Source of the DNA: Candidatus Anderseniibacteriota bacterium
GTDB taxonomy: Bacteria > Patescibacteriota > Andersenbacteria > UBA10190
Assembly: GCA_016197005.1 (NCBI GenBank)
Contig: JACPWO010000002.1
Location: forward strand, 210,178-274,177
Reading direction: 5' to 3'
Length of the DNA: 64,000 nt
The position numbers and the translations under genes are program-made. Below are positions 6,250 through 64,000 of this stretch, piece after piece. The notes beneath the pieces are model-generated. The model made no database searches. It saw nothing but the letters and a program-made list of their open reading frames with translations, and had not been told where the DNA came from. Positions within the stretch are counted from its first letter, which is position 1; each line of letters begins with the position of its first letter.

Positions 6250-6254
6250 GCTAG

Positions 6255-8200: not shown

Positions 8201-8257
8201 GGCTGGGTCCTTTGACCAGGGTGGAAAGAACGATCTCTCCGTTACCCTACTTCTCTT

Positions 8258-8286: not shown

Positions 8287-8340
8287 GTGTGCACTGCCCC
8301 GCTTGGCGGGGTTGTTAATTAGTCTATTTATCAGGTAATT

Positions 8341-8763: not shown

Positions 8764-8768
8764 TACCT

Positions 8769-9242
8769 ATGCCACGAAAAAAGCGCGTATATAAAAATAA
8801 GAGATACATTAAACCGGATCCTAAATTCGGTAACTTAATGTTGTCTCGTTTTATTAATTACATGATGTACGACGGCAAAAAGAGCACGGCGCAAACAGTG
8901 GTTTATGGAGCGCTCGCACAGGTATCAGAGAAGACAAAAAATGATCCGCTCGTGGTCTTTGATGCCGCTCTTCGTAATGTCACTCCTATCCTTGAAGTAA
9001 AAGCTCGCCGCGTTGGTGGTGCTAACTATCAAATTGCTCAGGAAGTACGACCAGAACGACGGGAGATGCTCGCCATGCGCTGGCTGCGAGATGCAGCGCG
9101 TGCTCGTGGTGGCAAAACAATGGCCGAAAAACTGGCGGCTGAACTCATTGATGCTTCCAATAAAGAAGGTGGAGCAATGAAAAAGCGAGAAGATGTACAC
9201 AAGATGGCCGAGGCTAACCGCGCATTCAGCCACTTCTCTTAA
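8769..9242 (+). CDS. rpsG: 30S ribosomal protein S7
   Basis: [22 protein letters not shown] family match. Confidence 0.95.
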
Positions 9243-9255
9243 ATCCGCTTAAGGT

Positions 9256-11361
9256 ATGTCAACTGATTTAAAGAAGTTTCCGAATGTTACTATAGAAAAA
9301 GTACGGAATTTCGGAATTATTGCCCACATTGATGCTGGTAAAACAACCGTGTCTGAGCGCGTGCTCTTCTACACCGGTCTTACGCATAAGATCGGAGAAG
9401 TGCATGAGGGGGAGGCAGTCATGGATTGGATGGAACAGGAACGAGAGCGCGGCATTACAATTACTGCTGCTGCTACGACTACGTTCTGGAAAGACCATCG
9501 CCTAAACCTCATCGATACACCGGGACACGTCGATTTCACTATTGAAGTCGAGCGCAGCTTGCGTGTGCTCGATGGCGCTGTTGTTGTGTTTGACGGTGTA
9601 GCCGGAGTTGAGCCACAAAGCGAAACGGTTTGGCACCAAGCGGAGAAATATAAAGTACCCCGCATGTGTTTTATTAATAAAATTGATCGCACTGGTGCAG
9701 ATTTTTGGAAAGCGGTTGACTCTATTCATGAACGCCTGACCAAAAAAACTGCCATTATGACCCTGCCAATTGGATCGGAAGATAATTTTGAAGGTCTCGT
9801 TGATTTACTTACAGAAAAAGCTTGGTATTTCGAAGGCAAAATGGGAGAAGTAATTATTGAGAAGGAAATTCCAGCCGAATTGCAGGAAGAGGCTAAGAAG
9901 CGCCGCGCTGAACTTGTAGAAAGAATCGCAGAGTTGGATGAAAAACTAACCGAAAAGTTTCTCGAGGCACAACCTATTGCACTCGACGAATTAAACATAG
10001 CGCTTCGTAAGGGAGTTATTGCGAATGAAATTGTCCCAATTTTTTGTGGATCTGCTTTGAAAAACAAAGGCGTGCAGCGAGTGCTGGATGCGGTTGTTGC
10101 GTACTTGCCTTCCCCCATTGATGTGCCACCAGTTGAAGGCACGGATCCTGATGATCTTGAAAAGAAAATTGTTCGTAAACCAGATCCCAGCGAGCCATTT
10201 GCTGCCCTGGCCTTTAAAGTTGCCAACGACCCCTATGTTGGACAGGTGACATTCTTCCGCGTCTACTCAGGCACGATTAAAACTGGCTCATATATTTACA
10301 ACTCGTCTGTAGGCAAAAAGGAACGCGTCAGCCGTATCCTCCGCATGCATGCTAATGATCGAGAAGAAGTAGAAGAAATTTCCGCTGGTGGTATTGGTGC
10401 GCTCGTGGGTATGAAATTTACCACAACTGGTGACACGCTGTGTGATGAAGATCACCCTCTTATTTTGGAACGTATTACTGGCGCTGATCCTGTTATTTCA
10501 ATTGCAGTTGAACCAAAGACTAAAGCTGATCAGGAAAAGATGGGCATGGCGCTCAAGTCCCTCATGAATGAAGACCCAACATTCCGGGTACGCACCGATG
10601 AAGAGACGATGCAGACAATTATGGAAGGAATGGGTGAACTGCATTTGGAAATTATGGTTGACCGTATGAAGCGAGAATTCGGAGTCCAAGTAAACGTTGG
10701 TAAGCCTCAGGTTGCGTACAAAGAAACAATCACCAAGATTACTGAAGCTGAAGGCCGGTACATCAAACAGTCAGGTGGTCGCGGACAATATGGTCATGTC
10801 TGGCTGCGTCTGGAACCGATGGAGCGTGGTAAGGGTGTTGAATTTGAAGATGATATTAAAGGTGGCGCCGTCCCACGGGAATATGTTCCGGCTATTGAAA
10901 AAGGTGTCATTGAATCCGCTCGCAACGGTGCGATTGCTGGATTTCCAGTTGTCGATATCAAAGCCGTTGCCTACGACGGTAGCTACCATGATGTAGATAG
11001 CTCGGAAATTGCCTTCAAAATTGCTGCTTCGATGGCTTTCCGCAGTGGTGTTAAGAATGCTTCACCAGTTCTACTTGAACCTATTATGAAAGTCGAAGTT
11101 ATTACCCCAGAAAATTACATGGGTGATGTAGTCGGAGACTTGAACGCTCGCCGTGGTCAGATTTTAGGCATGAGTGAACGAGGGACAGTAAAAGTTATTG
11201 ATGCATTAGTGCCGCTTGGTTCCATGTTTGGATATGCAACGCAACTCCGTTCCATGAGTTCCGGCCGTGCCAACTATTCGATGCAGTTTGATCATTACCA
11301 AGAAGTACCTCGCAATATTCAGGACGAACTTGTCGGCGCCAAGACAGTCAAAAAGATATAA
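9256..11361 (+). CDS. fusA: elongation factor G
   Basis: [10 protein letters not shown]1 motif, 701 aa, str-operon context. Confidence 0.95.
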
Positions 11362-11462: not shown

Positions 11463-12056
11463 TCAAAGCTCACAGCTGAACAAGAAAGCATCTCCATTTA
11501 CGGCGAGTGGGTGTTCTCGAGGCAATTTGCCTCTGAAACGGAAACCAGCAGAACGCAAAATAAACTGAAGGAAATTGCAATCTTGATGCAGATCCATTTG
11601 TATATCGAGACAGCCTCTCATCTTCAAATACGCTAAGGTCTCTTGAACAAGAAGTGGCGCAATCCTGGCGTATAGGGAGATGTTTTTAACGGCAATCTTT
11701 TGGATCTTTCCGATAGTTGGATCGTTAAGATTAATTGAGAATACGCAGCACCCAACAAATCGCCCATTAATGTACCCGAGCACCGCGTTCGTTTCACGGG
11801 TTAGTATGGCCTCGGTGTAATCATATTCTTGCCAGACATCGGAATCCTCTGGACTCATCATCTCTTCCATGGAAGGCGCGTAGGCAAGCGCTACCGCAGG
11901 ATTGACCCGCGCCACTTCAATGATGTCGGTTGCATGATCAATTAAGATGCTCATTAGCCGTCTCCATTGTGAGGGGATCAAGGGAACATTCCACGCGCAC
12001 TGACTGTAACCGTTACAGACTGTTATCTTTTTGCTCTGAAATTGTAACATTGTCAA
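11463..12056 (-). CDS. hypothetical protein with GNAT-like fold (acetyl-CoA motif not evident)
   Basis: 197-aa ORF antisense to operon direction; secondary-structure pattern resembles GNAT but Q/RxxGxG/A motif absent. Confidence 0.45.
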   Translation of the reverse strand: MTMLQFQSKKITVCNGYSQCAWNVPLIPSQWRRLMSILIDHATDIIEVARVNPAVALAYAPSMEEMMSPEDSDVWQEYDYTEAILTRETNAVLGYINGRFVGCCVFSINLNDPTIGKIQKIAVKNISLYARIAPLLVQETLAYLKMRGCLDIQMDLHQDCNFLQFILRSAGFRFRGKLPREHPLAVNGDAFLFSCEL

Positions 12057-37881: not shown

Positions 37882-37883
37882 AG

Positions 37884-38306
37884 TGCGAAGATAAGCTATA
37901 AGCCGGATTCTGTCAGGGATGATCATCTATCTAGGCGTACTGTCGCCAGTAAGCTCATGCTCTCTACCTGCTTTGTTCGTTTGAACAAAGCTGCTTGAGA
38001 TTGCATCAGGTGGGGTTTGCCCGCTCCACTTGTTACCAAGCAGGGCCGTGGTCTCTTACACCACAATTTCACCTTTACCTTAGATCGCGCCGCGACCACA
38101 CGGGGATTACCCGTAAAAATCACATGAAGATCGTAAGGAAGTTTGTTTCTGTTGCACTCTTCGCTCCGTATATACGGAGTCCCTCAGCTTACGCTGGGCA
38201 GGAGTTAGCTGCCACCTTTTTCTGTTGTAAAACAACGTTGGATGTCCGGACTTTCCTCTATGTCTCATCTTGCGACGAGCCACAGCAATCATCCACTTAT
38301 CTTCGC
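37884..38306 (-). ncRNA. rnpB: RNase P RNA, bacterial type A (M1 RNA)
   Basis: Minus-strand reads GAGGAAAGUCCGGAC (P4), GGUGAAAUUGUGGUGUAAGAGACCACGG, ACAGAAUCCGGCUUAU; 12-bp P1 helix pairs the two ends; no credible ORF. Confidence 0.85.
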
Positions 38307-39974: not shown

Positions 39975-41132
39975 TTGAGAACGCCAATGATGTACTTTAT
40001 CCTTAATCAGATGCGCGTTGCTTTAGTCCATGACTATCTAACACATTTCGGTGGAGCCGAACGTGTGCTTTTAGCTCTGATGGAGCTATACCCCAACGCA
40101 CCCGTCTACACTCTTGTTCACGACAAGGAAAATACTTCTCTAAAAATTGACTCTCGCAGAATTCGAACTTCTTTCTTACAAAAAATTCCTGGAGCAGCTC
40201 GCGCTCATCGATATTGGCCCCTTGCCCTTATGCCAACGGCTACAGAACAATGGGATTTTTCAGATTTCGATGTTGTAATCTCAACGAGTCACAGCTTTAG
40301 TAAAGGAATCATAACTGGCCCGAAGACTTTGCATATCTCGTATTGTTTTACTCCTACGCGCTACGCCTGGGACGACAGTCACCGATACGTACGTGAATTT
40401 TCCCAGAGCCCGTCATTTCAAAAAGTAGCTCCAGTTGCTTTGTCATATATTCGTCTCTGGGACTATTACGCTTCGCAGCGGCCTGACGTGTATGTGACTA
40501 TCTCTCACTATGTTGCTCGGCGCATTGAGAAGTATTATCGGCGGCCAGCAAAGGTAATATATCCTCCGGTCGATGTGAAGCGATTTGCGGTGCAGTCGCA
40601 GAACGACGGATATTACTTAGTTGTTTCTAGGCTCGTCCCGTATAAGCGCATAGATATCGCTATCGAAGCGTGCAAACAACTAGGGCGCCGGCTTCGGATT
40701 GCCGGAGTAGGACCGGAGCTAGAGGCTTTAAAGAAATTAGCTGGAGAAGAGACAGAACTCTTAGGATTTGTTCCTGATGAAAAGTTACCAAGTCTGTACG
40801 CTGGAGCAAAGGCGTTGTTATTTCCACAAGAAGAAGATTTTGGTATTACGCCCTTGGAAGCGGCAGCCAGCGGCAAGCCCACTATCGCTTTTGATGCCGG
40901 AGGCGCTTCCGAAACAATAATTAATGGCAAAACTGGTATTCTGGTGCCCGACCAGACAACTGAAGCTTTGATGCAAGGCATTTTGCAATCTGAAGATACC
41001 ACCTGGGATCCACTCGCTATCCGCCGTCACGCCCAAACTTATGATCGAGAAACCTTCTTGCATGCAATGGAAACCCTAGTGCACAATGAGATGATTTCTC
41101 ATGAATACGCTCGGGGGAAAGCCTTACGTTGA
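39975..41132 (+). CDS. GT4 family glycosyltransferase (start may be an internal Met near 40011)
   Basis: EAAASGKPTIAFDAGGASETI motif. Confidence 0.8.
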   Translation: MRTPMMYFILNQMRVALVHDYLTHFGGAERVLLALMELYPNAPVYTLVHDKENTSLKIDSRRIRTSFLQKIPGAARAHRYWPLALMPTATEQWDFSDFDVVISTSHSFSKGIITGPKTLHISYCFTPTRYAWDDSHRYVREFSQSPSFQKVAPVALSYIRLWDYYASQRPDVYVTISHYVARRIEKYYRRPAKVIYPPVDVKRFAVQSQNDGYYLVVSRLVPYKRIDIAIEACKQLGRRLRIAGVGPELEALKKLAGEETELLGFVPDEKLPSLYAGAKALLFPQEEDFGITPLEAAASGKPTIAFDAGGASETIINGKTGILVPDQTTEALMQGILQSEDTTWDPLAIRRHAQTYDRETFLHAMETLVHNEMISHEYARGKALR

Positions 41133-41754
41133 AGCATTAAAACGGTCACTGTTGTGGCTGCTGGGGTTTAGTGTAGCGCTAGCGGTCTTAGCCTGGGCCG
41201 TCGCCAGCACAATTAAGCCCTCGCACCAAGTATATTTTTCATATCTCGTCTCTTTAGCGGAACGAGAGCCGGCTGAAGAATTCCGGTTTGATGGCTACTA
41301 CGCCATACAAGCAACTGATCTGTTCGCCGCTACGCTTGCAAAATGGATTGGAACTCCGGAAGTAATTTCTGCAGCCTATGAGGCAGCGGAAATTGAGGAA
41401 ATAGGGAGTGATCCCCGACAACTCGTGCGGGCAGTGCACGCCGAAAAGACAGCGCCACAGTTAGTTGAAGTAGTTGTCCAACATAAAAACCCAGATACGG
41501 CTAAAAAATTAGCCAGTGGGCTCATGTCGGTAATGGATCGAAATATTGATCAGTATCATGATCAAGGTATTCCGGCTCTTCAATTTCGCGTCGTTACAAC
41601 TGAGCCTTGGCAAGGGGCTACTTCTATTTCTCGGGGTGTTATTGCGGTTGCGACATTCGTTCTCGTATTGTTTCTTGGTATTAATATCGTGCTGCTTATA
41701 GAAGCAACCAAGCAGAGTAGCGGACAAGAACGACCGGCTGGTCGTACCTGGTAG
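41101..41754 (+). CDS. Wzz/YveK-like polysaccharide chain-length determinant (two flanking TM helices)
   Basis: TM - soluble domain - TM topology typical of PCP family. Confidence 0.6.
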   Translation: MNTLGGKPYVEALKRSLLWLLGFSVALAVLAWAVASTIKPSHQVYFSYLVSLAEREPAEEFRFDGYYAIQATDLFAATLAKWIGTPEVISAAYEAAEIEEIGSDPRQLVRAVHAEKTAPQLVEVVVQHKNPDTAKKLASGLMSVMDRNIDQYHDQGIPALQFRVVTTEPWQGATSISRGVIAVATFVLVLFLGINIVLLIEATKQSSGQERPAGRTW

Positions 41755-41756
41755 CG

Positions 41757-42875
41757 ATGAAGATAGCTATCGACGTTCGATCGTTGATGGAGGGGCGACA
41801 TAGCGGTGTGGAAGAATATACAGTGCAGATTATTCGCGCGCTGATTCGAGTAGCTCCACAACATTCATACCACTTGTTTTACAACTCATATAAAGATGTA
41901 CGGCTGCCAGATTTCGGAAAGGGGCGAGTTATTACCCATGGATTTCGGTTTCCTAATAAAATATTTAACGTCTGGCAGTTAGTAACCGGTCACCCTCATT
42001 GGGACAACCTCATAGACCAGCACGTTGACGTGATATTTGTACCAAGCGTTCGCCTTACACCTCTTTCTGCAGATGTTCCGCTCGTAGCTGTTATGCACGA
42101 CTTATCGTACGAGCGGTTTCCTGAATTCTTAAATGCCTGGCGCCGCGTGTGGCATCGTATGATGCGACCACGTCTCATGATGGAAAATGCGGATCACGTT
42201 ATTAGCGACTCGGAACATACTAAGCAAGATTTAATTCATTTATATAAATTACCAGAAGCGAAAATATCAGTGGTGTATCCAGGAGCTCCAACCTTACCGG
42301 TGCCCCGAGCAGCGGATATACATGCTGTGCGTCGGCGATATGTCTTGCCGGACAAGTTTGTGCTTTCATTTGGCTCGATTGAACCTCGTAAAAATGTCGC
42401 TAGTATTATTCGAGCATGGTCAGCCATTGCTTCTCGTGTGCCACATGATTTGGTCATTGCTGGAGATAAGGGATGGCGGCAGAATGAAATAGAAAAAGTG
42501 ATTCAAAGTTCTTCTTTTAAAAAGCGAATTCATCAAATTGGTTTTGTGGCCGAAGAGGAAAAACTTGCCGTTTACGCGGCTGCAGATTTATTTGTTTATC
42601 CTAGCTTCTACGAAGGATTTGGATTTCCACCACTAGAATCGTTGCTGGCTGGAACACCTGTTATTACGTCTTTTAATTCCGCGCTGCCGGAAGTGGTAGG
42701 AAAATGGGCGACTCTCATCGATCCATATAACCCCTCTCAACTAGCGGCGGTTATGCAGGAAATGTTGCAGCGTCCAGAGCGAGTTTTAGCAGAAACGAAA
42801 AAGGAAATTAGCCGGATATTTTCTTGGGATGGTGCAGCTCGACAGATAGTCCGGATTCTGGAAAAAGCATCGTAG
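41757..42875 (+). CDS. GT4 family glycosyltransferase
   Basis: FVYPSFYEGFGFPPLESLLAGTPVITS. Confidence 0.8.
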   Translation: MKIAIDVRSLMEGRHSGVEEYTVQIIRALIRVAPQHSYHLFYNSYKDVRLPDFGKGRVITHGFRFPNKIFNVWQLVTGHPHWDNLIDQHVDVIFVPSVRLTPLSADVPLVAVMHDLSYERFPEFLNAWRRVWHRMMRPRLMMENADHVISDSEHTKQDLIHLYKLPEAKISVVYPGAPTLPVPRAADIHAVRRRYVLPDKFVLSFGSIEPRKNVASIIRAWSAIASRVPHDLVIAGDKGWRQNEIEKVIQSSSFKKRIHQIGFVAEEEKLAVYAAADLFVYPSFYEGFGFPPLESLLAGTPVITSFNSALPEVVGKWATLIDPYNPSQLAAVMQEMLQRPERVLAETKKEISRIFSWDGAARQIVRILEKAS

Positions 42876-42893
42876 GTCTGTATCCTTATCAGC

Positions 42894-44021
42894 ATGAAGA
42901 TTGCTATCGATGCCCGCTCGTGGGACTGGACTGGTGTTGGGCGATATATCCGCAGTCTGGTGCATGAATATGCCCGTCTAAAAACAGAACATACGTTTAC
43001 TCTCGTTGTGCCTCGAGAAGCGGAGTTATCAGCCGAAGTTCTGAAACAGCCCAATCTTTTCCAGATCGAGAGAACCGACGCTAGTTACTATTCTTTTTCA
43101 GAACAAACGACGTTTCTTCGTGAGATATCACGAATAAAAGCAGATCTTTTTCATTTTCCACATTTCAATGTACCGCTTAGGTTCGGGCGGCCATATGTCG
43201 TGACTATTCACGATACTACCCGCTTTGTTTTTTCAGGACAGCGCCGAACGGGACTCTTCAGCCAAATCGCTTACGAAATCGTATTTGCCCATGCCGTAAA
43301 GAAAGCACGCAAAATTATTTGTGTATCTAAACATACTCAGGAAGAACTTCTCAGTCTTCCCATTTTGAGAGCGGGAGATGTAGCACGTAAGAATGTACAA
43401 ACTATTTACGAGGGAGTGGATGAAGAATTTTTTCGTCCCGTACCAGAACTTGATCGAGCGAAAGTACGAGCCATGCTCGGAACCAAAAATCCATATGTCT
43501 TATACGTCGGTGTGTGGATGAGCCATAAAAACTTACCTCGTCTTTTAGAGTCGTTTCAGTTAGTTAAGGAAAAATATCCTCAGCTCAGGCTTGTGGTAAC
43601 CGGAAAACCAGTACCGACGTACACAAAGGTTCTTGATCGCGTGAAAGAATTGCACTTAGAAAAAGAAGTCATATTTTCTGGATTTGTACCGCATCCGCTG
43701 CTACCAGCTCTCTACCGAGAAGCGGAACTGTTAATCGTACCAAGTTTGTATGAAGGGTTTGGACTGCCAGCACTAGAAGCGGCCGCGCTTGGTACGCCAG
43801 TTGTCGCTTCTAATGTTACGAGTCTACCGGAAATCATGGGAGAAGCAGCTGAGTACGTAAATCCTGAAAATACGGCGAGTATTGCCGACGGAATTCAGCA
43901 CTTACTTGCGAATGACCAGCGCAGTGAAGAGCTCGTTAAAAAAGGTGCCAGCCAAGCTGGAAAGTTTTCGTGGAAGACGTGCGCGGAAGAGACATTATCC
44001 ATATACAACGGTACCAATTAA
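42894..44021 (+). CDS. GT4 family glycosyltransferase
   Basis: [27 protein letters not shown]. Confidence 0.8.
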
Positions 44022-44036
44022 TCGTATATTGTAGGT

Positions 44037-44702
44037 GTGCTTGACGTGATTCCTTCAGGAGCGTCTTCGTATAACCCTCGACCACGACGATCTCGTCGTA
44101 GGCGTTCTGTTCCTAGTCCGAATGTTGTTCAGGTGGAATGGAAATTACCAGCTCGTCTCCGAAAACCAGTCCGTCAACAATTTGCCCAGGAACGTGCCCA
44201 GCGTCGTAGGCGTCAAACAGTCGTTCAATTTCAGCGTCGACCTTTGCATACCCAAGCATTACTGGCTGCGGACAGAGATAGTGCCCGAACAGGTAACCGT
44301 GTTCGTAAGCCTACTCGCCGGTTCTTTGGCGATGCACTTTCTGCTCAGACCAGCGACGTAACCGAAGCAAGTCGCCCACAATTACAGCTCGCTCCACCCC
44401 CATACGTCGGATCATTTGTTGCTAGCCGTCCCACTCAAAGTAAAGCGTCTTCTGTTTCTGCACCACGATTGAAGAAACAGAAAACGTTATCGTATACCAC
44501 TGGTGAACGAGATATTCCAATAACAATTGGTGATGGAGCTCCGGTGCAAGCTACAAATAATGAAGATCTCTTTGTTCAAGTAAAACCTAAGCGCGTAGCG
44601 GCTGGTGTGACGTTTAGTTTGTGGCCAGGAAATTGGTTTCAAAAGCAACCAGCTGCCAAGCAGCCGCAAACAAGTAAAAAAAAACTGATTTCGCAATATT
44701 AG
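44037..44702 (+). CDS. Arg-rich low-complexity protein; probably the N-terminal part of the DUF4012 gene (frame break at A9 run 44676..44684)
   Basis: Disordered R/Q/P-rich sequence; downstream frame open from 44678 and encodes a TM helix straight after the A-run. Confidence 0.55.
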   Translation: MLDVIPSGASSYNPRPRRSRRRRSVPSPNVVQVEWKLPARLRKPVRQQFAQERAQRRRRQTVVQFQRRPLHTQALLAADRDSARTGNRVRKPTRRFFGDALSAQTSDVTEASRPQLQLAPPPYVGSFVASRPTQSKASSVSAPRLKKQKTLSYTTGERDIPITIGDGAPVQATNNEDLFVQVKPKRVAAGVTFSLWPGNWFQKQPAAKQPQTSKKKLISQY

Positions 44703-44812
44703 TCGCGGGGTGTCTTCTTGCTACTGGGCTGGTCTGGCAAGCACAACGTATCGGTATCGCAGTCTCTCGCTTTGATGGTATTCAAGCAGCAGCGGAGGGA
44801 GCAGTAGATAAG

Positions 44813-46666
44813 TTGTTGCAAGGGCAGCAAGTATTAGCGCAAGGAGATTTTGCGGCGGGACAAGAATCATTCGGTGAAGCAAACGTTTTGGTGCAAGAAG
44901 CACAAGGTCAATTACATGATGCGTTATCTTCTTCCCAAACAGTCCTGCAATTCTTGGACGTAAGTGGCACAGTAAAATCTGGTGATAGTATGTTGGCTGC
45001 AACTGCTGCTTTAGCACAAGCTGGTGAGCATACGGCTTCAGGACTAGAAATTCTTTCTCAAGAAAAATCTCTTTCAGAAGCAGTTACAACCGCTCTTCCC
45101 GATATTCGTAGTGCTGCTGAACAGCTAGGCAAAGTGGAAGAAGCATTAAGCCATGTCAATGACGGGATTATTCCGGCTACCGTCCAACCGCAATTTATGA
45201 TGCTTAAGACACTTGTGCCACAAGCTCGCGTTCTGCTAGATCGCTTTCTTAGCCAGGCCGATACTCTTCTCTATCTGTTAGGTACTGAACACGATCGTCA
45301 GTATTTGGTACTGCTGGCTAATAACCATGAACTGCGGCCCGTAGGCGGATTCATCGGTACAACTGCTCTGGTAAATGTGGACAGAGGAGAAGTTGAACAA
45401 GTAGACGTAGCGAGTGTGTATGACGGTGATGGACAACTAAAACAATTTATTGCTCCTCCTGATCCTTTGTCTCCCATAGTTGATCGTTGGTACCTGCGGG
45501 ACTCTAACTGGTTTGTAGATTTCAAAACGTCTGCCCAAAAAGCAGCTGAACTTTTTGAAAAAGAAGGTGGCCCAACAGTGGACGGAGTTATTTTGATGAC
45601 GCCCGAAGTAATTCGAGAAATTCTCGAATTTACGGGCCCCATTGCTGTTCCTGGATATGATCAGCCCATATCTGCCGACACCTTTGTGGAGGTAACCCAG
45701 CGCGAGGTGACCTATGAATATGACCGACAAATTAATCGCCCGAAGCAATTCTTAGCAGATCTTACGCCTATCCTCTTGGAAAAACTTTTCACTGGATCAG
45801 ATAATAAGCTTCAGGTACTGGGAGCGTTGACGCGTTCACTTTCTAAGAAAGATTTATTATTGTCCTTCCGGGATGAAGCCGCCCAAGAGCAAGTAGAGCA
45901 ACTAGGATGGGCAGGAAGTCTGCCCGTTGACGCTCCCGGCTTTTTACACGTGAATAACGCGAATATTGGGGGACATAAAAGTGATGAATTTATTGAGCAA
46001 GAAATAGATTATCGAGTACAAGTTGATGAGAACGGTCAAGCTCAGGCAACGGTAACCATTCGACGTACCCATAACGGACCTACAGAAAAAGGAAACCGCG
46101 AGTTCCCGATAGGTGACGACCCAACGCAAAAAGATAATATTATTTTCCAGCGAGTACTGGTACCAAGCGGCTCGCAGTTACTAGAAGCTAAAGGATTTTC
46201 TCCGAGGCCAACAGATAGTGCTTGGGGATTCAGTCCACCCCAGCCACCAGATGGCGTTACGCTTGAAGCTGATGCTGATCTCGCTGTCTGGCAATCGGGT
46301 CAACAACATGATGCCAGTGGCACCATCATTGGTAAAGAAGCTGGATACACGATGTTTGGGAACTGGATTGTGACCGAGCCGGGCCAGACCTCAGTCGTTC
46401 TGTATCGTTATCAACTGCCCACGCTGATTGAAATGCCTGGCTTATTTAAACCAGCGGCATCAACTTCATTCTTTGTGGCTAAACAATCGGGGGCTAATCG
46501 AACAAGTATCCGGACTGAATTTGCGCTGCCAGTGGGTTACAGAGTTCTACACACAATCCCCGACACTGGAATTACCCGAGAAAGTGATGAAATAACGGTG
46601 TATCGAGGAGATCTATCAACTGATAAGCTTTTCGGAATTGTATTTGAGAAAGCCTCGCGGCTCTAA
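44813..46666 (+). CDS. DUF4012 domain protein (polysaccharide-cluster associated); true N-terminus likely upstream
   Basis: LANNHELRPVGGFIGTTALVNVDRGEV matches DUF4012 core; frame open upstream to 44678. Confidence 0.7.
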   Translation: MLQGQQVLAQGDFAAGQESFGEANVLVQEAQGQLHDALSSSQTVLQFLDVSGTVKSGDSMLAATAALAQAGEHTASGLEILSQEKSLSEAVTTALPDIRSAAEQLGKVEEALSHVNDGIIPATVQPQFMMLKTLVPQARVLLDRFLSQADTLLYLLGTEHDRQYLVLLANNHELRPVGGFIGTTALVNVDRGEVEQVDVASVYDGDGQLKQFIAPPDPLSPIVDRWYLRDSNWFVDFKTSAQKAAELFEKEGGPTVDGVILMTPEVIREILEFTGPIAVPGYDQPISADTFVEVTQREVTYEYDRQINRPKQFLADLTPILLEKLFTGSDNKLQVLGALTRSLSKKDLLLSFRDEAAQEQVEQLGWAGSLPVDAPGFLHVNNANIGGHKSDEFIEQEIDYRVQVDENGQAQATVTIRRTHNGPTEKGNREFPIGDDPTQKDNIIFQRVLVPSGSQLLEAKGFSPRPTDSAWGFSPPQPPDGVTLEADADLAVWQSGQQHDASGTIIGKEAGYTMFGNWIVTEPGQTSVVLYRYQLPTLIEMPGLFKPAASTSFFVAKQSGANRTSIRTEFALPVGYRVLHTIPDTGITRESDEITVYRGDLSTDKLFGIVFEKASRL

Positions 46667-46679
46667 TACAATCCTCTTA

Positions 46680-48296
46680 ATGGTAAAGAATGGGAAATCG
46701 GGCAACGGATCTATTGTATCCGCTGCCTTTATTATCGGGGTTGCTTCACTGGCTAGTGCTTTTGTTGGCCTTGTTCGCCAGCGTGTCTTTTCGACTCATT
46801 TTGGAGCAGGTGATACTTTTGATGCCTTCATTGCTGCTTTTCGTGTCCCAGATCTTATTTTCAATTTAGTTGTCATCGGTGCCTTGTCGGCTGCTTTCAT
46901 TCCGATGTTTACAGAAAAATTAGTTAAGAAGAGCGGTGAAGAGGAAGCATATACCTTTGCCTCTGCCGTTCTAAACATTCTTATTATCGCGGTCGTTGTT
47001 TTGGCGGTAGTGTATGCTGCCTTGGCTCCATGGTTTGTGCCATTAATAGCACCAGGATTTGAAGGGGAGAAACTACAACTGACGATTCGTTTATCCCAGA
47101 TAATGTCAGTACAACCAATTTTATTGGGAGCAAGTTTTGTGTTTTCTGGAATTCTGAATTCCTACAAGCGTTTTGTTGCGTACGCCCTTGCCCCTATTTT
47201 CTACAACCTAGGTATTATCGCCGGTGTCATCTGGCTGGTACCTATGATGGGAATAAATGGACTGGGATGGGGAGTAGTATTAGGAGCTGCCCTTCATATT
47301 CTCGTTCAATTTCCAGCTGTTCTACGAGTTGGTTTTAAGTGGAAACCAGTTCTTACTTCTTCAAATAGTGATTTAAAAAAGTTGTGGAAGATGATGGTTC
47401 CACGTGTGTTTGGTTTAGCTGCCCAGCAAATTAATCTTTTAGTAGTAACTATTTTAGGGTCAGGTCTTTTAGTTGGAAGTATTGCCGTGTTTAACCTAGC
47501 GAATAATATTTACAACTTACCAATTACCATTTTCGGGATTGCTTTTTCACAGGCTGCTTTCCCGACGTTGGCTGAGTATGCTGCGACCAAACGTCACAGT
47601 GAATTTCGCGGAACTTTAACCCGAACCTTTCGCTATATTCTTTTCTTTGCTATTCCCCTATCTGCTCTCTTCTACTTATTCCGTGCTCAAATAGTCCGTG
47701 TTCTTTTTGGAGATGGTGCGTTCGACTGGGAAGATACCGTAATGACGTTCGAGACACTTGGTTTCTTGGTTATTAGTATTTTTGCCCAAGCCACCATTCC
47801 TCTCCTCACTCGCGCGTTCTATGCGAAGCAGGACACAAAGACACCAGTCATTATCTCCATTATTAGTATTGTCGCGAACGTTGCGTTAGCACTGTGGCTC
47901 GCACCGCGTATGGGCGTACAGGGTCTCGCGCTTGCTTTTTCAATTGGTGCCATTATCCAACTGTTACTTTTGCTAGGTATTCTTCATCGTCAGTTAGAAG
48001 GATTCGATGATGTTAAAGTCCTAGCTAGTCTTATGAAAATCGTTGTTGCCTCTATTGCTGGCGCAATCGCCGCCCAGCTCCTTAAATATCCCATTGCCTC
48101 CTTCGTCGATATGCAACGCTTCTGGGGTGTATTAACGCAGCTCATTGGAGCAGTATTCGGTGGTTTACTTGTGTACCTAGTGATCTGTTGGTTAGTTGGA
48201 AGTCCAGAACTTGAAGCACTAAAGCGTTATCTCCCACGTCGATTTAAGATGGCGAGTGGCACCGATACGCCCCGTTTTGAAGGCCACCAGGAGTAG
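46680..48296 (+). CDS. murJ: lipid II / polysaccharide flippase MurJ (MviN family)
   Basis: ORF 46638..48296 trimmed to MVKNGK; 14-TM MOP family, FRVPDLIFNL motif. Confidence 0.85.
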   Translation: MVKNGKSGNGSIVSAAFIIGVASLASAFVGLVRQRVFSTHFGAGDTFDAFIAAFRVPDLIFNLVVIGALSAAFIPMFTEKLVKKSGEEEAYTFASAVLNILIIAVVVLAVVYAALAPWFVPLIAPGFEGEKLQLTIRLSQIMSVQPILLGASFVFSGILNSYKRFVAYALAPIFYNLGIIAGVIWLVPMMGINGLGWGVVLGAALHILVQFPAVLRVGFKWKPVLTSSNSDLKKLWKMMVPRVFGLAAQQINLLVVTILGSGLLVGSIAVFNLANNIYNLPITIFGIAFSQAAFPTLAEYAATKRHSEFRGTLTRTFRYILFFAIPLSALFYLFRAQIVRVLFGDGAFDWEDTVMTFETLGFLVISIFAQATIPLLTRAFYAKQDTKTPVIISIISIVANVALALWLAPRMGVQGLALAFSIGAIIQLLLLLGILHRQLEGFDDVKVLASLMKIVVASIAGAIAAQLLKYPIASFVDMQRFWGVLTQLIGAVFGGLLVYLVICWLVGSPELEALKRYLPRRFKMASGTDTPRFEGHQE

Positions 48297-61374: not shown

Positions 61375-61517
61375 CCATGCCTCATAACGCGCCTCGTTCA
61401 AATTGGACGGGGTTTTTCTTTTGACAAAACCTGAATATTTTGCTATTACATACAAGTCGCCATGGGGCGATAACGGAGAAATCCGCAACTGAAACTTGCC
61501 AATTTGGAGAGTCAACA

Positions 61518-62123
61518 ATGTCGCAAGAAATCATTTTGAAAGTCGCGCCGCTGGGTGATGCAGTTATGTGTGCTACTATTGCAAGCAGACTCATTTCCTA
61601 CGGGCTTTCTGTTCGTATGGCCGTCAGCAAGCTCGGAGCAACCCTGTTGGGGAATACTGGTATTCCTTTGACTACGGAAGCTGTCACTGCGCCGCTTGTG
61701 ATCGATGTGTGTGACTATTTGAAACAAGATTGTCATCACGCAAAATTCAAAGGGAGTATTGTCAACGACAACTACCTTCGGGGTGGGTTTGCTCATCTTG
61801 TGACGTGGATGACTCGTCACATTGAAATGGAGTTGGGGCGCATGGAAGTTACATTGCCGACTAGTCTTGATGTTGGTCCTTGCAATGTGAAATTGCCGGT
61901 TACAGAGCTTCAACAGAAAAAGGTACACCAACTTCTTTTAACAGAAGGTATTATGTCGGGGAAGCGGCCGCTTGTGATTATGGCAGCGGAGGCAGGGAGT
62001 CCGAACCGTCGGATTAGTCCGGAAACGTTGCAAGAAGTTGCAATAGGTCTTGAAGAACAAATGGATATTGCGCTTCTGACACCCTTGCCGACTCTTAGCA
62101 TGCAACTCGTAATTAAGGGTTAA
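61518..62123 (+). CDS. GT9 family heptosyltransferase, N-terminal half only (C-terminal nucleotide-sugar domain missing; apparently interrupted by integrated element)
   Basis: ORF 61440..62123 trimmed to MSQEIILKVAPLGDAVMCAT (GT9 N-terminal ALGD motif) preceded by GGAG; only about 200 aa vs about 330 expected. Confidence 0.6.
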   Translation: MSQEIILKVAPLGDAVMCATIASRLISYGLSVRMAVSKLGATLLGNTGIPLTTEAVTAPLVIDVCDYLKQDCHHAKFKGSIVNDNYLRGGFAHLVTWMTRHIEMELGRMEVTLPTSLDVGPCNVKLPVTELQQKKVHQLLLTEGIMSGKRPLVIMAAEAGSPNRRISPETLQEVAIGLEEQMDIALLTPLPTLSMQLVIKG

Positions 62124-63719
62124 GTTCGGTGATGGTAGCTCAATATGGGCCTGAATATCAAACTCCTGGCGCCATACCACTATTCTATCAACTACACCCC
62201 GAATCGTCCGCTTTTTGCTCTGCGGCAGCATGGTCTTAAAGACGCGAGTTGCCTCAATGCACATCGCCCATAGCTCATCTTCGGGGCTGAGAGAGTTAGT
62301 CTGGCTTTGCTGCTGGAGCTCTTCCACTTGTTTGTGGTATCCCGCCTCTCGGTTTTTACTTTCACGAACCAGCTTCTGGTAAATGCCGAGCTCCATATCG
62401 CCTGTGCCGAGCCCCAGGGCGTATTGCTCCCGAATTTTTACTTCTTTGTCGATGAGCTCTTGTAGTCGCGCATTATCTTGTTGAGTGCTTGTATTTTCAG
62501 CGACGGCTTGCAGATGAAATTTGCCGTGCTTATGGAGCAGGTCAGGATCAGTCATGTGAGTCACGAGACCGGTCCACACCGCTTTATCCAAAGCCTTTGT
62601 GTTGACACCTGGATAGGTGCACTCAGTCGGCAGGGGATGCTTTAAGATTTTTTGCGTGCAGCTGTAATATGAGTGTCCGACTTGTCGGCCGTTGCCGGTG
62701 CGCTTGTAGCCGCAACCGCACATCACCAGGCTGGTTAGAAGATAGGCATTCTTCCGATTTTTCTTGGCGTACCTTTGATTGCGCGTCAGCATTTCCAGTG
62801 CCTTCTCGTATGCCCCATCGTCTTCGATGATGGTTGGCACCGCATACGGAATCCACTCTTCTTTGGGACGTACTTTCCGGCTACTCTTTTTTACCTTCTT
62901 ATACTTTTCATGGTTAGTCGGATTTTTCGCTACAATCGCTTCGTTCTTGTTGAAGTAGATAAAACCTTTAGAGTAGGTGTCATATTTGAGAGTGCGGATG
63001 ATTGATTCTTTGACCCAGTGATCCTGCTTTTTCTTAGGCGGCATAATGCCGAGCTTGTAGAGCTTCTCAATAATTTTTCGCAGGCTTACCTGCTCATGCA
63101 CGAACCATTTATAGATCAGGCGGACTACTCGCGCCTCGGGTTCGCTGATCTCGTACCGAGGAGGCTGACCGGGTTCGCGGACAATGCGGTAGCCATAGAT
63201 GGCGTGGCCGTTAATGAGCTTGCCCGCTTTCGCTTTGAACATTTTGCCGCGCCGGAACCGCTCGGCGATTTTTAAGCGTTCATATTCATGGAAAATACCT
63301 TGTACCGATTGCATCAGTTTGGCTTCAGGTGTTATGGCATCAATGTCGTGGAGGGTCACGAACTTGAGACCGAGCTCGCTGAGTTCGTTGATGACTAACT
63401 CTTGATGGTAAAAGATACGAGAGAGACGTCCTCGGTCGTAGACATACAGAATCTGGAACTTGCTTGCAGTAGCGGCATCACGCATGGCATCAAGGCCGGG
63501 GCGCTGCAAAATTGAGCCGGTCCAGCCGTCATCCTTGAACAGAAACTCCGGCGGGAGAATGTGGCCATCATTTTTGATGCGGGATACGACCTCATCGATC
63601 TGCGACTCGATGGTAGCTTCATTCTCCTGTCCCTCAGTCGAGACACGCACGTACGCTGCGGCGATGAGCGATTGCACGGCAGGGGAAGGAGTAATAGTAT
63701 TGGTTTTAGGTGATTGCAT
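61938..63719 (-). CDS. large serine recombinase (resolvase/invertase N-domain + recombinase + zinc-ribbon domains)
   Basis: AAYVRVSTEGQ catalytic Ser motif, 593 aa, coiled-coil/zinc region; 3' end overlaps GT9 ORF. Confidence 0.85.
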   Translation of the reverse strand: MQSPKTNTITPSPAVQSLIAAAYVRVSTEGQENEATIESQIDEVVSRIKNDGHILPPEFLFKDDGWTGSILQRPGLDAMRDAATASKFQILYVYDRGRLSRIFYHQELVINELSELGLKFVTLHDIDAITPEAKLMQSVQGIFHEYERLKIAERFRRGKMFKAKAGKLINGHAIYGYRIVREPGQPPRYEISEPEARVVRLIYKWFVHEQVSLRKIIEKLYKLGIMPPKKKQDHWVKESIIRTLKYDTYSKGFIYFNKNEAIVAKNPTNHEKYKKVKKSSRKVRPKEEWIPYAVPTIIEDDGAYEKALEMLTRNQRYAKKNRKNAYLLTSLVMCGCGYKRTGNGRQVGHSYYSCTQKILKHPLPTECTYPGVNTKALDKAVWTGLVTHMTDPDLLHKHGKFHLQAVAENTSTQQDNARLQELIDKEVKIREQYALGLGTGDMELGIYQKLVRESKNREAGYHKQVEELQQQSQTNSLSPEDELWAMCIEATRVFKTMLPQSKKRTIRGVVDRIVVWRQEFDIQAHIELPSPNLTLNYELHAKSRQGCQKRNIHLFFKTYCNFLQRFRTNPTVRTPCLRCHNHKRPLPRHNTFC

Positions 63720-63770
63720 ATTAGGTCATCTGCCAGAGGCTCCAGTTCCAAATGAGGCCTCTGGTTTTAT

Positions 63771-63980
63771 TTACGGATCAAAGAGCTCAGCTAATTTTTT
63801 GCTGCTCACACGCCACGCCTTGCCAAGCTTTACTGCTGGTAGCTGTTTGCGGCGGACCATACGGTAGACCGTAATGCGGGCTACTTGTAGCTTTTTGGCC
63901 ACTTGTTCGAGGGTTAGGTACTGGTCTTCCTTATTCATATCTCTTTCATTATACCATATGTATCTTTCGTAATCATCCAC
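63771..63980 (-). CDS. excisionase-family helix-turn-helix DNA-binding protein
   Basis: LTLEQVAKKLQVARITVYRMV HTH, 69 aa, immediately upstream of recombinase. Confidence 0.75.
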   Translation of the reverse strand: MDDYERYIWYNERDMNKEDQYLTLEQVAKKLQVARITVYRMVRRKQLPAVKLGKAWRVSSKKLAELFDP

Positions 63981-64000
63981 AGGCTAATATGCCGGATTTG

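What the first reader, a model, noticed from the sequence alone, without database searches (positions are those of the whole stretch)
61440..64000. Integrated element (large serine recombinase + excisionase HTH) apparently inserted into the GT9 heptosyltransferase gene
The GT9 ORF keeps only its N-terminal ALGD domain (about 200 aa from MSQEIIL) and ends inside the 3' end of a 593-aa large serine recombinase gene on the opposite strand. A small excisionase-type HTH gene lies just upstream of the recombinase, separated by an 8-bp-stem hairpin. The element runs out of the window.

Large serine recombinases commonly integrate within ORFs. Disruption of the last glycosyltransferase of the heptose cluster could act as a lysogenic-conversion or receptor-modification switch. 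The att core should lie near 62000..62130.
Basis: partly seen in the sequence, partly recalled or inferred. Interest (0 to 1): 0.65.

Follow-up and report, generated by a model that had tools for sequence, protein, structure and literature searches.

The report
Serine-recombinase element splitting a heptosyltransferase-like gene
A mobile DNA element that moves with a large serine recombinase sits in the middle of a sugar-transferase gene at the end of a heptose-sugar cluster and has inactivated it; this is an ordinary kind of event, but the second half of the gene could not be found, so the proposed reversible switch is unproven.

Summary
The ORF at 61518-62123 has no Pfam, NCBIfam or PDB sequence match. 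An exhaustive HMMER scan found five 298-372 aa relatives that are GT9-like by Pfam and by predicted fold. The window ORF matches only their first ~192 residues.

That homology stops at nt 62093. Homology of the opposite-strand large serine recombinase (LSR) stops at about aa 531-537, nt 62109-62127. The last ~55-60 codons of the 593-aa ORF are therefore read-through, antisense to the remnant. The two homologies abut within 33 nt or less, as expected for an LSR attachment junction.

An HTH_17 excisionase-type gene precedes the LSR. Extending the contig (GCA_016178385.1) shows at least 8 kb more. It carries a primase/helicase, a Ser-to-Ala resolvase-like protein, unknown ORFs and a LOOT RNA (Rfam RF03000). 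No virion genes are present.

The missing GT9 C-terminal half is absent from all 73.7 kb examined. The far end of the element was not reached, so neither reversibility nor the "switch" idea can be tested.

Verdict: a new member of a known kind. The LOOT RNA proved strongly associated with LSR-carrying temperate phages, which may be the more interesting lead.

The parts
61391..61423 (+). Terminator-like hairpin plus T-run after the last heptose-cluster gene (the HAD/GmhB-like gene ending at 61374). It separates that operon from the GT9-like gene.
   Evidence: stem 61391-61413, tail TTTTCTTTTG. A TTGACA-17 nt-TATTAC promoter-like site at 61421-61449 was read directly.
61518..62123 (+). Truncated GT9-like (heptosyltransferase-like) gene of 201 codons. 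Residues 2-192 (nt 61521-62093) are homologous to the N-terminal Rossmann domain and the first strand-helix of the C-domain of 340-372 aa relatives. The last 9 codons (LSMQLVIKG*) are junction-derived.
   Evidence: (family HMM positions 4-195, 104 bits).
62094..62126 (.). Junction interval holding the candidate attL-type site. It lies between the end of GT9-like homology (62093) and the end of LSR homology (62127 by PHROG profile; possibly 62109 by BLASTP to L019). It contains the palindrome GCATGC (62098-62103) inside a weak dyad, CCCTT..AAGGG.
   Evidence: The dyad was read and is not statistically supported.
61938..63719 (-). Large serine recombinase ORF of 593 aa. Residues 1 to about 531-537 form the conserved enzyme (catalytic YVRVST motif). 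The last ~55-60 residues (61938 to about 62108-62126) are read-through, antisense to the GT9-like remnant.
   Evidence: phrog_95 residues 5-531; L019 relative of 544 aa, alignment ends at residue 537.
63733..63764 (-). 8-bp stem hairpin between the HTH gene and the LSR gene. Real, but not statistically unusual.
63771..63980 (-). HTH_17 / excisionase-family small DNA-binding protein (69 aa from GTG; 55 aa from ATG 63938). It sits directly upstream of the LSR, as it does in LSR relatives L019 and L021.
63935..64000 (-). 3' end of the next element gene, a 63-aa ORF cut by the window edge. Beyond the window, in L001 coordinates (L001 position = 73720 minus window position), the element continues with these genes:
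- 71-aa ORF at 9373-9588
- resolvase-domain-only protein with Ser-to-Ala change at 8804-9376
- primase/helicase at 6576-8807
- ORFs of 90, 410, 112 and 209 aa at 3750-6488
- LOOT RNA at 3535-3655 on the opposite strand
- SNase-type nuclease at 2411-3475

Best explanation
A mobile element that integrates with a large serine recombinase (LSR) has inserted at about codon 192 of a ~345-codon divergent GT9-like (heptosyltransferase-like) gene. That gene lies next to a nucleotide-heptose biosynthesis cluster.

**Shown:**
- The gene fragment keeps the acceptor-side N-domain and lacks the nucleotide-sugar-binding C-domain with its DSGxxHxAAA motif. It cannot be an active transferase.
- Host-gene homology and recombinase homology abut within 33 nt or less, at 62094-62126.
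- The LSR ORF has lost its natural stop and runs on for ~55-60 codons, antisense through the remnant.
- The element carries an excisionase-type HTH gene directly upstream of the LSR, a primase/helicase, a catalytically dead resolvase-like protein, several unknown ORFs and a LOOT RNA. No virion genes occur in the 12 kb seen.
- It shares LOOT, two small genes and its divergent-operon layout with LSR-carrying tailed temperate phages.

**Inferred:**
- Integration was an LSR-catalysed attP x attB exchange, and the attP site overlaps the 3' end of the LSR gene.
- The HTH protein is a directionality or regulatory factor.
- The nuclease gene downstream of LOOT belongs to the element.
- The element is a prophage-derived island, a remnant or a satellite rather than a complete phage.

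**Not established:** where the far end lies, and whether the other half of the gene survives. If it does not, the insertion is a fixed gene inactivation, not a switch.
For: - **Truncation.** Relatives of 298-372 aa align to residues 4-192 only. tblastn from four of the five relatives ends at nt 62090-62093 (the fifth at 62060). The family HMM matches positions 4-195 at 104 bits.
- **GT9-like identity.** PF01075 hits fall in the relatives' C-halves. The only PDB profile hit is WaaF. The top Foldseek hits are all GT9. Relative P0006 is followed by an HldD-like heptose epimerase. Upstream neighbours in the window include GmhA-kinase, GmhB-like, nucleotidyltransferase, transketolase and transaldolase genes.
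- **LSR.** Three diagnostic domains are present. The PHROG integrase profile covers residues 5-531. A 34%-identical relative is 544 aa and its alignment ends at residue 537. The catalytic Ser motif is conserved.
- **Parallel case.** The 3' end of the L019 LSR ORF overlaps the start of ychF.
- **HTH-LSR pair.** It is conserved in L019 and L021.
- **Reality of the junction.** It appears in four independent assemblies.
- **Element content.**
- **Link to LSR phages.** LOOT is at L001 3535-3655 (85.7 bits versus gathering score 46.4). Gene families are shared with LOOT-bearing phage contigs, which carry terminase genes.
Against: - The C-terminal half of the gene is absent from the whole window and from L001 1-21782 on both strands.
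- No inverted copy of the junction half-site, and no direct repeat, marks a second junction in the far flank available.
- No empty-site allele or close orthologue exists in the protein collections searched. The MAG's genome is not in the genome collection. attB therefore cannot be reconstructed.
- The far flank has intermediate composition: the ThiF and HisK genes look host-like, while the SNase and FeeM-like genes look element-like.
- The att site itself is only delimited by homology ends, not identified.
Confidence: 0.65

Rival explanations
1. Degraded insertion. The element integrated into the gene as above. A later deletion then removed the rest of the prophage, the second att junction and the GT9 C-terminal half. 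What remains is an ~8-9 kb remnant fused to unrelated host genes. The gene loss is permanent.
For: - No virion genes and no GT9 C-half occur in the 12 kb beyond the junction.
- LOOT-bearing relatives are full tailed phages with terminase genes within a few kb of LOOT.
- The ThiF and HisK genes left of the nuclease gene are compositionally host-like.
- No second half-site was found.
Against: - All element ORFs are intact and tightly packed.
- The nuclease gene follows LOOT at the same spacing as the LOOT-downstream genes in phages. The LOOT side therefore looks undisturbed.
Confidence: 0.35
2. The element is an intact, excision-competent gene-interrupting element, like skin, SPbeta or the Listeria comK prophage. 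The C-terminal half lies beyond the sequence examined, and excision restores heptosyltransferase activity. Surface glycan, and perhaps a phage receptor, would be toggled.
For: - The LSR is intact and has an adjacent excisionase-type gene.
- The junction is clean.
- By analogy with L023, L024, L038 and L059, the element probably continues past LOOT. The far end may simply not have been reached.
Against: - No C-half was found in 73.7 kb.
- No empty-site or circular-junction sequence was found in any assembly or protein collection.
- There is no evidence of regulated excision.
- The 3.5 kb beyond LOOT carries no phage-like genes.
Confidence: 0.12
3. The GT9-like fragment is not the integration target. 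Either it was truncated by an unrelated event, or it is carried as cargo at the end of the element. In that case the true host-element boundary lies upstream of it, near 61424-61517.
For: - A terminator-like site and a separate promoter-like site isolate the fragment from the heptose operon.
- One Logan contig ends at window position 61507.
Against: - The fragment's GC content (0.47) is close to the host's (0.46), while the element is at 0.49-0.56.
- A family relative also sits next to a heptose-pathway gene, so this locus is a natural home for the gene.
- The GT9 and LSR homologies abut with no spare DNA between them.
- Logan contig ends are inconsistent between samples.
Confidence: 0.08
4. 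The element is a serine-recombinase transposon or integrative mobilisable element (Tn4451/TnpX-like), or a phage satellite, inserted at a loosely specified target rather than a dedicated attB.
For: - It is small and has no virion genes.
- It has a primase/helicase replication module and an integrase, as satellites do.
- It shares LOOT and two genes with full phages that could serve as helpers.
Against: - No relaxase or mobilisation gene and no packaging gene was recognised.
- The ends are undefined.
- The closest phage-database relatives of the LSR are prophage integrases such as Wolbachia WO at 32% identity.
Confidence: 0.15

Closest known systems
Gene-interrupting LSR prophages and elements: Listeria A118/phi10403S in comK, Bacillus subtilis SPbeta (SprA/SprB) in spsM, and skin (SpoIVCA) in sigK (from established knowledge)
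   Same: The LSR gene sits at one end of an element lodged inside a coding sequence, and a small accessory DNA-binding gene lies next to it. In SPbeta the interrupted gene is also a surface-polysaccharide gene.
   Different: In those systems both gene halves flank the element and excision rebuilds the ORF. Here only the 5' half was found. The LSR is only distantly related. No virion genes were seen.
Anabaena fdxN-element recombinase XisF (NCBIfam NF041201)
   Same: It is the best NCBIfam match, spanning residues 22-515. It too is a developmental gene-interrupting element that uses an LSR.
   Different: The score is 77.8 bits against a family cut-off of 375, so this LSR is not an orthologue. 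No XisH/XisI-like partners were recognised.
Wolbachia phage WO large serine recombinase
   Same: It is the closest annotated phage relative: 32% identity over 80% of the LSR.
   Different: WO is a complete tailed prophage in an unrelated host, and its target sites are unrelated.
Mycobacteriophage BPs-type integration-dependent immunity, where attP lies inside the integrase gene (from established knowledge)
   Same: The crossover lies at or inside the 3' end of the integrase ORF. Integrated and excised forms would therefore encode different C-termini.
   Different: BPs uses a tyrosine integrase whose C-terminal degradation tag is removed on integration. Here a serine recombinase gains a ~55-60 aa tail, and no functional consequence is shown.
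GT9 heptosyltransferases WaaC, WaaF and TibC
   Same: The full-length relatives share the GT-B fold and the DSGxxHxAAA motif, and lie in a heptose-pathway context. Their Cys-rich C-terminal insert resembles the iron-binding insert of TibC.
   Different: Sequence identity is 12-16%. PF01075 scores are marginal (20-29 bits). The family is very rare, with 6 members among 1.84 billion cluster representatives. The window copy lacks the donor-binding domain.
LOOT RNA (Rfam RF03000)
   Same: The match is full length and well above the gathering score, at the distal end of the element.
   Different: Rfam lists LOOT as a metagenome-derived sRNA of unknown function (PMC7779021). The links seen here are to LSR phages, a downstream ORF at fixed spacing and a long-range 3' helix. 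I could not find them described in the text available to me. The discoverers' supplement was not readable.

Membership tests
Large serine recombinase (phage-type integrase) | N-terminal resolvase catalytic domain with the nucleophilic serine | tested here: met
   PF00239 scores 90 bits over residues 20-167. The YVRVST motif aligns with YARVST of gamma-delta resolvase.
Large serine recombinase (phage-type integrase) | Recombinase domain plus zinc-ribbon domain C-terminal to the catalytic domain | tested here: met
   PF07508 scores 41.5 bits (residues 195-311) and PF13408 scores 34.1 bits (residues 327-384). The PHROG integrase profile covers residues 5-531.
Large serine recombinase (phage-type integrase) | Defined attL/attR junctions with a 2-bp crossover, and a reconstructable attB and attP | tested here: inconclusive
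   One junction is delimited to 62094-62126 by homology ends. No second junction, empty site or circular form was found.
Large serine recombinase (phage-type integrase) | Demonstrated integration and excision activity | not testable with these tools
   Requires an experiment or read-level data.
GT9 heptosyltransferase | Match of the window ORF itself to PF01075 Glyco_transf_9 | tested here: not met
   The ORF has no Pfam hit even at E<=10.
GT9 heptosyltransferase | GT-B two-domain fold and GT9 signature in full-length family members | tested here: met
   Four of five relatives hit PF01075, two of them above the 22-bit cut-off. The P0006 model matches 3TOV, 1PSW, 4RAP and 6DFE with Foldseek E-values of 7e-10 to 6e-6.
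GT9 heptosyltransferase | C-terminal nucleotide-sugar-binding domain (DSGxxHxAAA region) present | tested here: not met
   The window ORF ends at family HMM position 195 of 348. The remainder is absent from 73.7 kb.
GT9 heptosyltransferase | Heptose as donor sugar | not testable with these tools
   Only genomic context supports it, namely the adjacent heptose pathway here and an HldD-like gene after P0006.
Reversible gene-interrupting element ('active lysogeny' type) | Both halves of the interrupted gene flank the element, in frame | tested here: inconclusive
   The 5' half is present. The 3' half was not found in any sequence obtainable, but the far end of the element was not reached.
Reversible gene-interrupting element ('active lysogeny' type) | Excision restores the ORF | not testable with these tools
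   No empty-site allele exists in any collection searched.
Excisionase / recombination directionality factor | Small HTH_17 / TIGR01764 'excise' domain protein encoded next to the integrase | tested here: met
   PF12728 scores 49 bits and TIGR01764 scores 42 bits (cut-off 28.8). The same gene pair occurs in L019 and L021.
Excisionase / recombination directionality factor | Controls the direction of the LSR reaction | not testable with these tools
   Known LSR directionality factors are structurally diverse, so the function is only inferred here.
Complete tailed prophage | Terminase, portal, capsid and tail genes | tested here: not met
   None were found among the 10 element genes or the 4 genes beyond LOOT (Pfam and PHROGs). 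Related LOOT loci do carry TerS and TerL.
LOOT RNA (RF03000) | Covariance-model score at or above the Rfam gathering score over the full model | tested here: met
   85.7 bits versus 46.4, covering model positions 1-121.

The most novel reading that the evidence does not exclude
Two readings remain open.

**LOOT as a leader RNA.** LOOT, an orphan RNA of unknown function, may be a dedicated cis-acting leader of LSR-type temperate phages and their derivatives. In every copy examined it heads an accessory gene (nuclease, restriction-modification or membrane protein) at a fixed distance. It also forms a long-range helix that sequesters the U-tract at its 3' end. That suggests a transcription-termination or antitermination device controlling prophage-expressed genes.

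**A state-dependent recombinase.** In this element the crossover lies in the 3' end of the LSR gene. Integrated and excised forms would then make recombinases with different C-termini. If the distal half of the GT9-like gene survives further along the contig, the whole element would be a reversible switch of surface heptosylation.
Probability: 0.25. Interest if true: 0.65.

Novelty: new member of a known kind. Interest (0 to 1): 0.4.

Why it matters
An LSR element inserted in a gene is a familiar event, so the core finding mainly documents the inactivation of a surface-glycan gene in an uncultured groundwater bacterium. Three by-products have more value.

- **A rare GT9-like family.** It has six members among 1.84 billion cluster representatives, carries a Cys-rich, TibC-like insert, and is linked to heptose pathways outside classical LPS. 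It is invisible to Pfam in its N-terminal half.
- **A genomic home for LOOT RNA.** LOOT turns up in LSR-carrying temperate phages, upstream of accessory or defence-type genes. That gives a testable hypothesis for an RNA with no known function.
- **Catalytically dead resolvase-like proteins.** Resolvase-domain-only proteins with a Ser-to-Ala change are encoded beside LSRs in two unrelated elements. They are candidate regulators of serine recombination.

LSRs are genome-engineering tools, so new LSR and att pairs, and new accessory factors, have practical interest.

Tried and rejected
- **Pfam, NCBIfam, PHROGs and PDB sequence searches of the 201-aa ORF.** No hits.
- **AlphaFold of the 201-aa ORF alone.** Unusable, pLDDT 33.
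- **Word-indexed homologue searches.** One used the ORF and one the family alignment. They returned only the ORF itself and P0006.
- **Third homologue search.** It used the partial histidine-kinase gene, in the hope of extending the contig, and returned nothing. The contig therefore could not be extended beyond L001 position 1.
- **Genome-collection scan with the ThiF-like flank gene.** The MAG is not in that collection, and only distant hits came back, from a Bacillus and an Acidimicrobiales genome.
- **Exact-protein look-ups of the LSR and the HAD-like gene.** Every context found carries the element, with no empty site.
- **LSR scan of IMG/VR.** No relatives. The primase scan found only distant N-terminal matches. 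The metagenome scan with the LSR found three distant relatives.
- **Search for terminal direct or inverted repeats, or a second half-site.** The only result was an 11-of-13 direct match (L001 3712-3724 versus 11613-11625). About 0.4 such matches are expected by chance, and recombination there would fuse the LSR in frame to the next ORF. I rejected it.
- **Weak collinear tblastn hits of GT9 C-halves antisense to the LSR (62212-62373, 62490-62588).** The family HMM does not support them (scores 0.7-3 bits), so I rejected them as chance.
- **Composition test of the far flank.** Intermediate and not decisive.
- **Logan contig ends as boundary markers.** Inconsistent between samples.
- **Literature.** No paper mentions the assembly or its runs. 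LOOT is not discussed in the main text of its discovery paper, and the supplement is not held.
Full report
**1. What is at 61440-64000**

The + strand carries an ORF at 61440-62123. The likely start is ATG 61518 (MSQEIIL..., 201 aa), 6 nt after GGAGAG. On the - strand lie a 593-aa ORF (61938-63719) and a 69-aa ORF (63771-63980). An 8-bp stem hairpin sits between them (63733-63740 / 63757-63764). The hairpin folds at -17 kcal/mol, but 17 of 200 shuffles fold as well.

- The 593-aa protein has the three domains of a large serine recombinase: Resolvase 90 bits, Recombinase 41.5 bits, Zn_ribbon_recom 34 bits.
- The 69-aa protein is an HTH_17 / TIGR01764 'excise' protein.
- The two long ORFs overlap by 186 nt.

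**2. Is the + strand ORF a truncated GT9 gene?**

Standard libraries do not recognise it. Pfam (even at E<=10), NCBIfam, PHROGs and PDB sequences gave no match. The word-indexed search of 5.8 billion proteins returned only the ORF itself.

The exhaustive HMMER scan of 1.84 billion cluster representatives found five relatives: P0002-P0006, 298-372 aa, 29-37% identity, E 4e-8 to 3e-6. All align to query residues 4-192 and to their own first ~195 residues. In the alignment, homology runs through ...LLTPLPT. The last nine residues of the window ORF (LSMQLVIKG) are unrelated, while the relatives continue for about 150 more residues. That extra stretch includes a DSGPxHIAAA motif and a Cys-rich segment.

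Several results identify the family as GT9-like:

- Four of the five relatives hit PF01075 Glyco_transf_9 in that C-terminal part, at 20-29 bits against a cut-off of 22.
- The family profile's only PDB sequence hit is heptosyltransferase II, WaaF (1PSW), through the same motif.
- An AlphaFold model of P0006 built on the six-sequence alignment has pLDDT 77 and pTM 0.81.
- The model's best Foldseek matches are all GT9: 3TOV, 1PSW, TibC (4RAP/4RB4) and WaaC (6DFE), with E-values from 7e-10 to 6e-6.
- P0006 is followed by an HldD-like ADP-heptose epimerase gene.
- The window ORF follows a cluster encoding the following:
  - transketolase and transaldolase;
  - a GmhA-kinase fusion;
  - GmhB-like phosphatases;
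  - a nucleotidyltransferase.

The ORF is thus the N-terminal ~55% of a rare, divergent GT9-like glycosyltransferase. It lacks the donor-binding domain. Relatives are not naturally ~200 aa. A terminator-like site (61391-61423) and a promoter-like site separate the gene from the heptose operon.

**3. The junction**

On the host side, tblastn with four of the five relatives ends at nt 62090-62093 (the fifth ends earlier, at 62060). The family HMM (348 positions) matches positions 4-195 at 104 bits, ending at 62093.

On the other strand, the PHROG integrase profile covers LSR residues 5-531, ending at nt 62127. A 34%-identical metagenomic relative (L019) is 544 aa, and its BLASTP alignment ends at residue 537, nt 62109.

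Host-gene homology and recombinase homology therefore abut within 15-33 nt (62094-62126). The last ~55-60 codons of the 593-aa ORF are read-through, antisense to the remnant.

L019 shows the same habit. Its LSR ORF runs about 50 nt into the start of an intact-looking ychF gene. In this LSR lineage the attachment site seems to overlap the 3' end of the recombinase gene.

The interval contains a GCATGC palindrome inside a weak dyad. I give this no statistical weight. The same junction is present in the NCBI MAG contig and in three independent Logan assemblies of different runs. That rules out a chimera.

**4. The rest of the element**

The LSR protein is encoded on GCA_016178385.1 contig JACOTL010000006.1 (492 kb). 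Locus L001 gives 9.7 kb beyond the window edge (L001 position = 73720 minus window position).

Upstream of the LSR, all on one strand, lie the following genes:

| L001 position | Gene | Evidence |
|---|---|---|
| 9740-9949 | HTH gene | |
| 9373-9785 | ORFs of 63 and 71 aa | |
| 8804-9376 | 190-aa resolvase-domain-only protein | |
| 6576-8807 | 743-aa primase/helicase (phrog_6088, 82 bits; CHC2 zinc finger) | |
| 3750-6488 | ORFs of 90, 410, 112 and 209 aa with no family match | |

No terminase, portal, capsid or tail gene is present. Element GC is 0.49-0.56, against 0.46 for the window.

**5. The far end and the missing half**

Left of the 209-aa gene, on the opposite strand, Rfam finds a full-length LOOT RNA (RF03000) at L001 3535-3655. 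It scores 85.7 bits against a gathering score of 46.4.

After LOOT come four closely spaced genes on that strand:

- a membrane-anchored SNase-type nuclease;
- a ThiF-like gene;
- an autoinducer-synthase/FeeM-like gene;
- a 7TM histidine-kinase gene.

The family HMM and tblastn find nothing resembling GT9 positions 196-348 anywhere in the window or in L001 1-21782, on either strand. No second half-site or terminal repeat is detectable.

I could not extend the contig further. Look-ups are restricted to window proteins. My last homologue search failed. The MAG is not in the genome collection.

Is LOOT the end of the element? Probably not, as section 6 shows. Composition of the far flank is intermediate.

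**6. LOOT RNA and LSR phages (a side result)**

Pattern scans of IMG/VR, filtered by nhmmer and by Rfam, gave eight further LOOT copies above gathering score. They are L023, L024, L031, L038, L059, L077, L086 and L155. One more copy, L119, was found by nhmmer only.

**Association with LSRs.** Eight of nine LOOT-bearing contigs carry an LSR gene within the fetched locus. Only 2 of 125 other loci from the same scans do (Fisher p = 2e-10). The LOOT contigs are related phages, so these are not independent events.

**Shared phage genes.** The LOOT contigs share ParB-methylase, small and large terminase genes (phrog_38, 278 bits) and restriction-modification-type methylase genes. The first two genes of the window's element (209 and 112 aa) have homologues just upstream of the LSR in L059.

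**Two layouts occur**:

- LSR followed by LOOT 49-58 nt downstream on the same strand (L077, L155).
- LOOT at a divergent promoter region, 2.7-6.3 kb from the LSR, reading away from it (L001, L023, L024, L038, L059).

**A downstream ORF at fixed distance.** In six of the eight loci that extend far enough to show it, an ORF on the LOOT strand starts 140-176 nt after the GCATGG motif. The automated search gave 77 and 112 nt for L038 and L086; I take these for upstream alternative starts, and the L086 gene as called starts about 160 nt out. The proteins differ:

- a membrane protein;
- a NucS-like protein;
- a type I-like methylase plus specificity subunit;
- the SNase gene in L001.

By this analogy the nuclease gene belongs to the element, and the element continues past LOOT.

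**A long-range helix.** All ten copies can pair the apex of the central hairpin with a 3' tail that includes the U-tract. Duplex energies are -23 to -41 kcal/mol, z -3 to -6.9, and at most 3 of 300 shuffles do as well. The sequences differ between copies, and the U-G pairs favour this strand. The tail lies beyond the end of the Rfam model.

**Tertiary-contact motifs.** LOOT also carries a CCUAAAC/GCAUGG element that resembles the 11-nt GNRA-tetraloop receptor, and two GAAA loops. The receptor comparison rests on my own knowledge.

**What is published.** Rfam papers describe LOOT only as a metagenome-derived RNA (PMC7779021). Another paper notes its unusual cross-covariations (PMC7657543). I could not read the discoverers' supplement, so I cannot say whether the phage/LSR link is already recorded.

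**7. Mechanism**

The best-supported reading is an LSR-catalysed attP x attB integration at about codon 192 of the GT9-like gene. The insertion removed the donor-binding domain and so inactivated the enzyme (confidence 0.65).

- *Shown:* the truncation, the abutting homologies, the intact LSR with its catalytic serine, the conserved HTH-LSR pair, and the kinship with LSR phages.
- *Inferred:* the exact crossover, the role of the HTH protein, and the extent of the element.

The main open alternative concerns the other side. One possibility is a later deletion that removed the distal prophage, attR and the C-half, leaving a remnant and permanent loss (0.35). Less likely readings are that the fragment is cargo or was truncated independently (0.08), or that the element is a transposon or satellite with loose target choice (0.15, and not exclusive of the others).

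**8. Comparison with known systems**

The closest analogues are gene-interrupting LSR elements: the Listeria comK prophages, SPbeta in spsM, skin in sigK, and the fdxN element with XisF.

- The LSR is not an orthologue of any of them. Its XisF score is 78 bits against a cut-off of 375. The best phage relative is the Wolbachia WO recombinase at 32% identity.
- The defining feature of those systems, two in-frame halves flanking the element, could not be shown.
- It is not a complete prophage on present evidence.

**9. Verdict**

This is a new member of a known kind, with an interest score of 0.4. The routine step that would settle it is to read the remainder of the public contig. The LOOT-LSR-phage association and the Ser-to-Ala resolvase-like partner proteins are the leads most worth following.

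Noticed in passing
L001 3535-3655 (- strand), about 6.1 kb beyond the window end. Other copies: L023 4386-4511, L024 5922-6043, L031 5520-5654, L038 8399-8517, L059 7852-7981, L077 1287-1423, L086 2421-2538, L155 194-323.: LOOT RNA (Rfam RF03000, function unknown) lies at the distal side of the element. Among IMG/VR loci, 8 of 9 LOOT-bearing contigs carry a large serine recombinase, against 2 of 125 control loci. The contigs are related tailed temperate phages with terminase genes. An ORF for a nuclease, restriction-modification or membrane protein follows LOOT on the same strand. In six of the eight loci that extend far enough, it starts 140-176 nt after the GCATGG motif.
   Followed up: partly
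LOOT copies listed above, plus about 45 nt 3' of the Rfam model end (for example L001 3495-3534).: All ten LOOT copies can form a 12-20 bp long-range helix between the apex of the central hairpin and a 3' tail (GCYGGCGG..GAGSC-UUUUGUGUUU) that includes the U-tract. The sequences covary between copies, and the U-G pairs favour this strand. The tail lies outside the Rfam model. It could be a long-range terminator or attenuator.
   Followed up: partly
L001 8804-9376 (+) and L020 361-882 (+): These are resolvase-domain-only proteins of 190 and 173 aa, encoded near or next to LSR genes in two unrelated elements. Both have Ala in place of the catalytic serine (YCRTAA and YARTAT versus YARVST) and lack any DNA-binding domain. 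They may be inactive partners or regulators of the LSR.
   Followed up: partly
P0002-P0006 (relatives of window 61518-62123): The GT9-like family is extremely rare, with 6 members among 1.84 billion cluster representatives. It has a conserved Cys-rich C-terminal segment (CPxxPCGxHGY...SACIY...APCM). Its model matches the iron-containing protein heptosyltransferase TibC almost as well as it matches LPS heptosyltransferases, so a protein or non-LPS acceptor is possible.
   Followed up: partly
L019 991-2625 and about 2573 onward: A 34%-identical LSR, also preceded by an HTH_17 gene, has its last ~17 codons overlapping the start of an apparently intact ychF gene. This is a second case in which the 3' end of this LSR lineage's gene spans the element-host junction.
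   Followed up: partly
L001 1-2366 (- strand): The genes beyond the nuclease are tightly spaced and co-oriented: a ThiF-like gene, an autoinducer-synthase/FeeM-like N-acyl synthase gene and a 7TM-HisKA histidine-kinase gene. They may form a signalling module. Whether they belong to the host or the element is unresolved, since their composition is mixed.
   Followed up: partly
window 37883-38304 (-); window 6254-6325 (-) and 6369-6441 (+): Bacterial RNase P RNA class A (202 bits), and two divergently arranged tRNA-Pro genes (anticodons GGG and CGG) 44 nt apart.
   Followed up: no
L001 6055-6070 / 6105-6120: A perfect 16-bp inverted repeat with a 34-nt spacer lies between the 410-aa and 90-aa element genes. 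It may be a terminator or a protein-binding site.
   Followed up: no
L002 position 1 (= L001 3634) and L003 end (= L001 12213 = window 61507): Two Logan assemblies break their contigs inside LOOT and just upstream of the GT9-like start codon respectively. This may reflect repeated LOOT sequence or strain heterogeneity in those samples. The breaks are not consistent between samples.
   Followed up: no
L024 41-127 (+): A tRNA gene lies about 880 nt beyond the 3' end of the LSR gene in a LOOT-bearing phage contig. It may mark the host flank or attachment region of that prophage.
   Followed up: no
window 39975-48296: Upstream of the heptose genes lie three GT4 glycosyltransferase genes, a DUF4012 gene and a MurJ-type flippase gene. 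The locus is therefore a larger cell-envelope glycan region.
   Followed up: no
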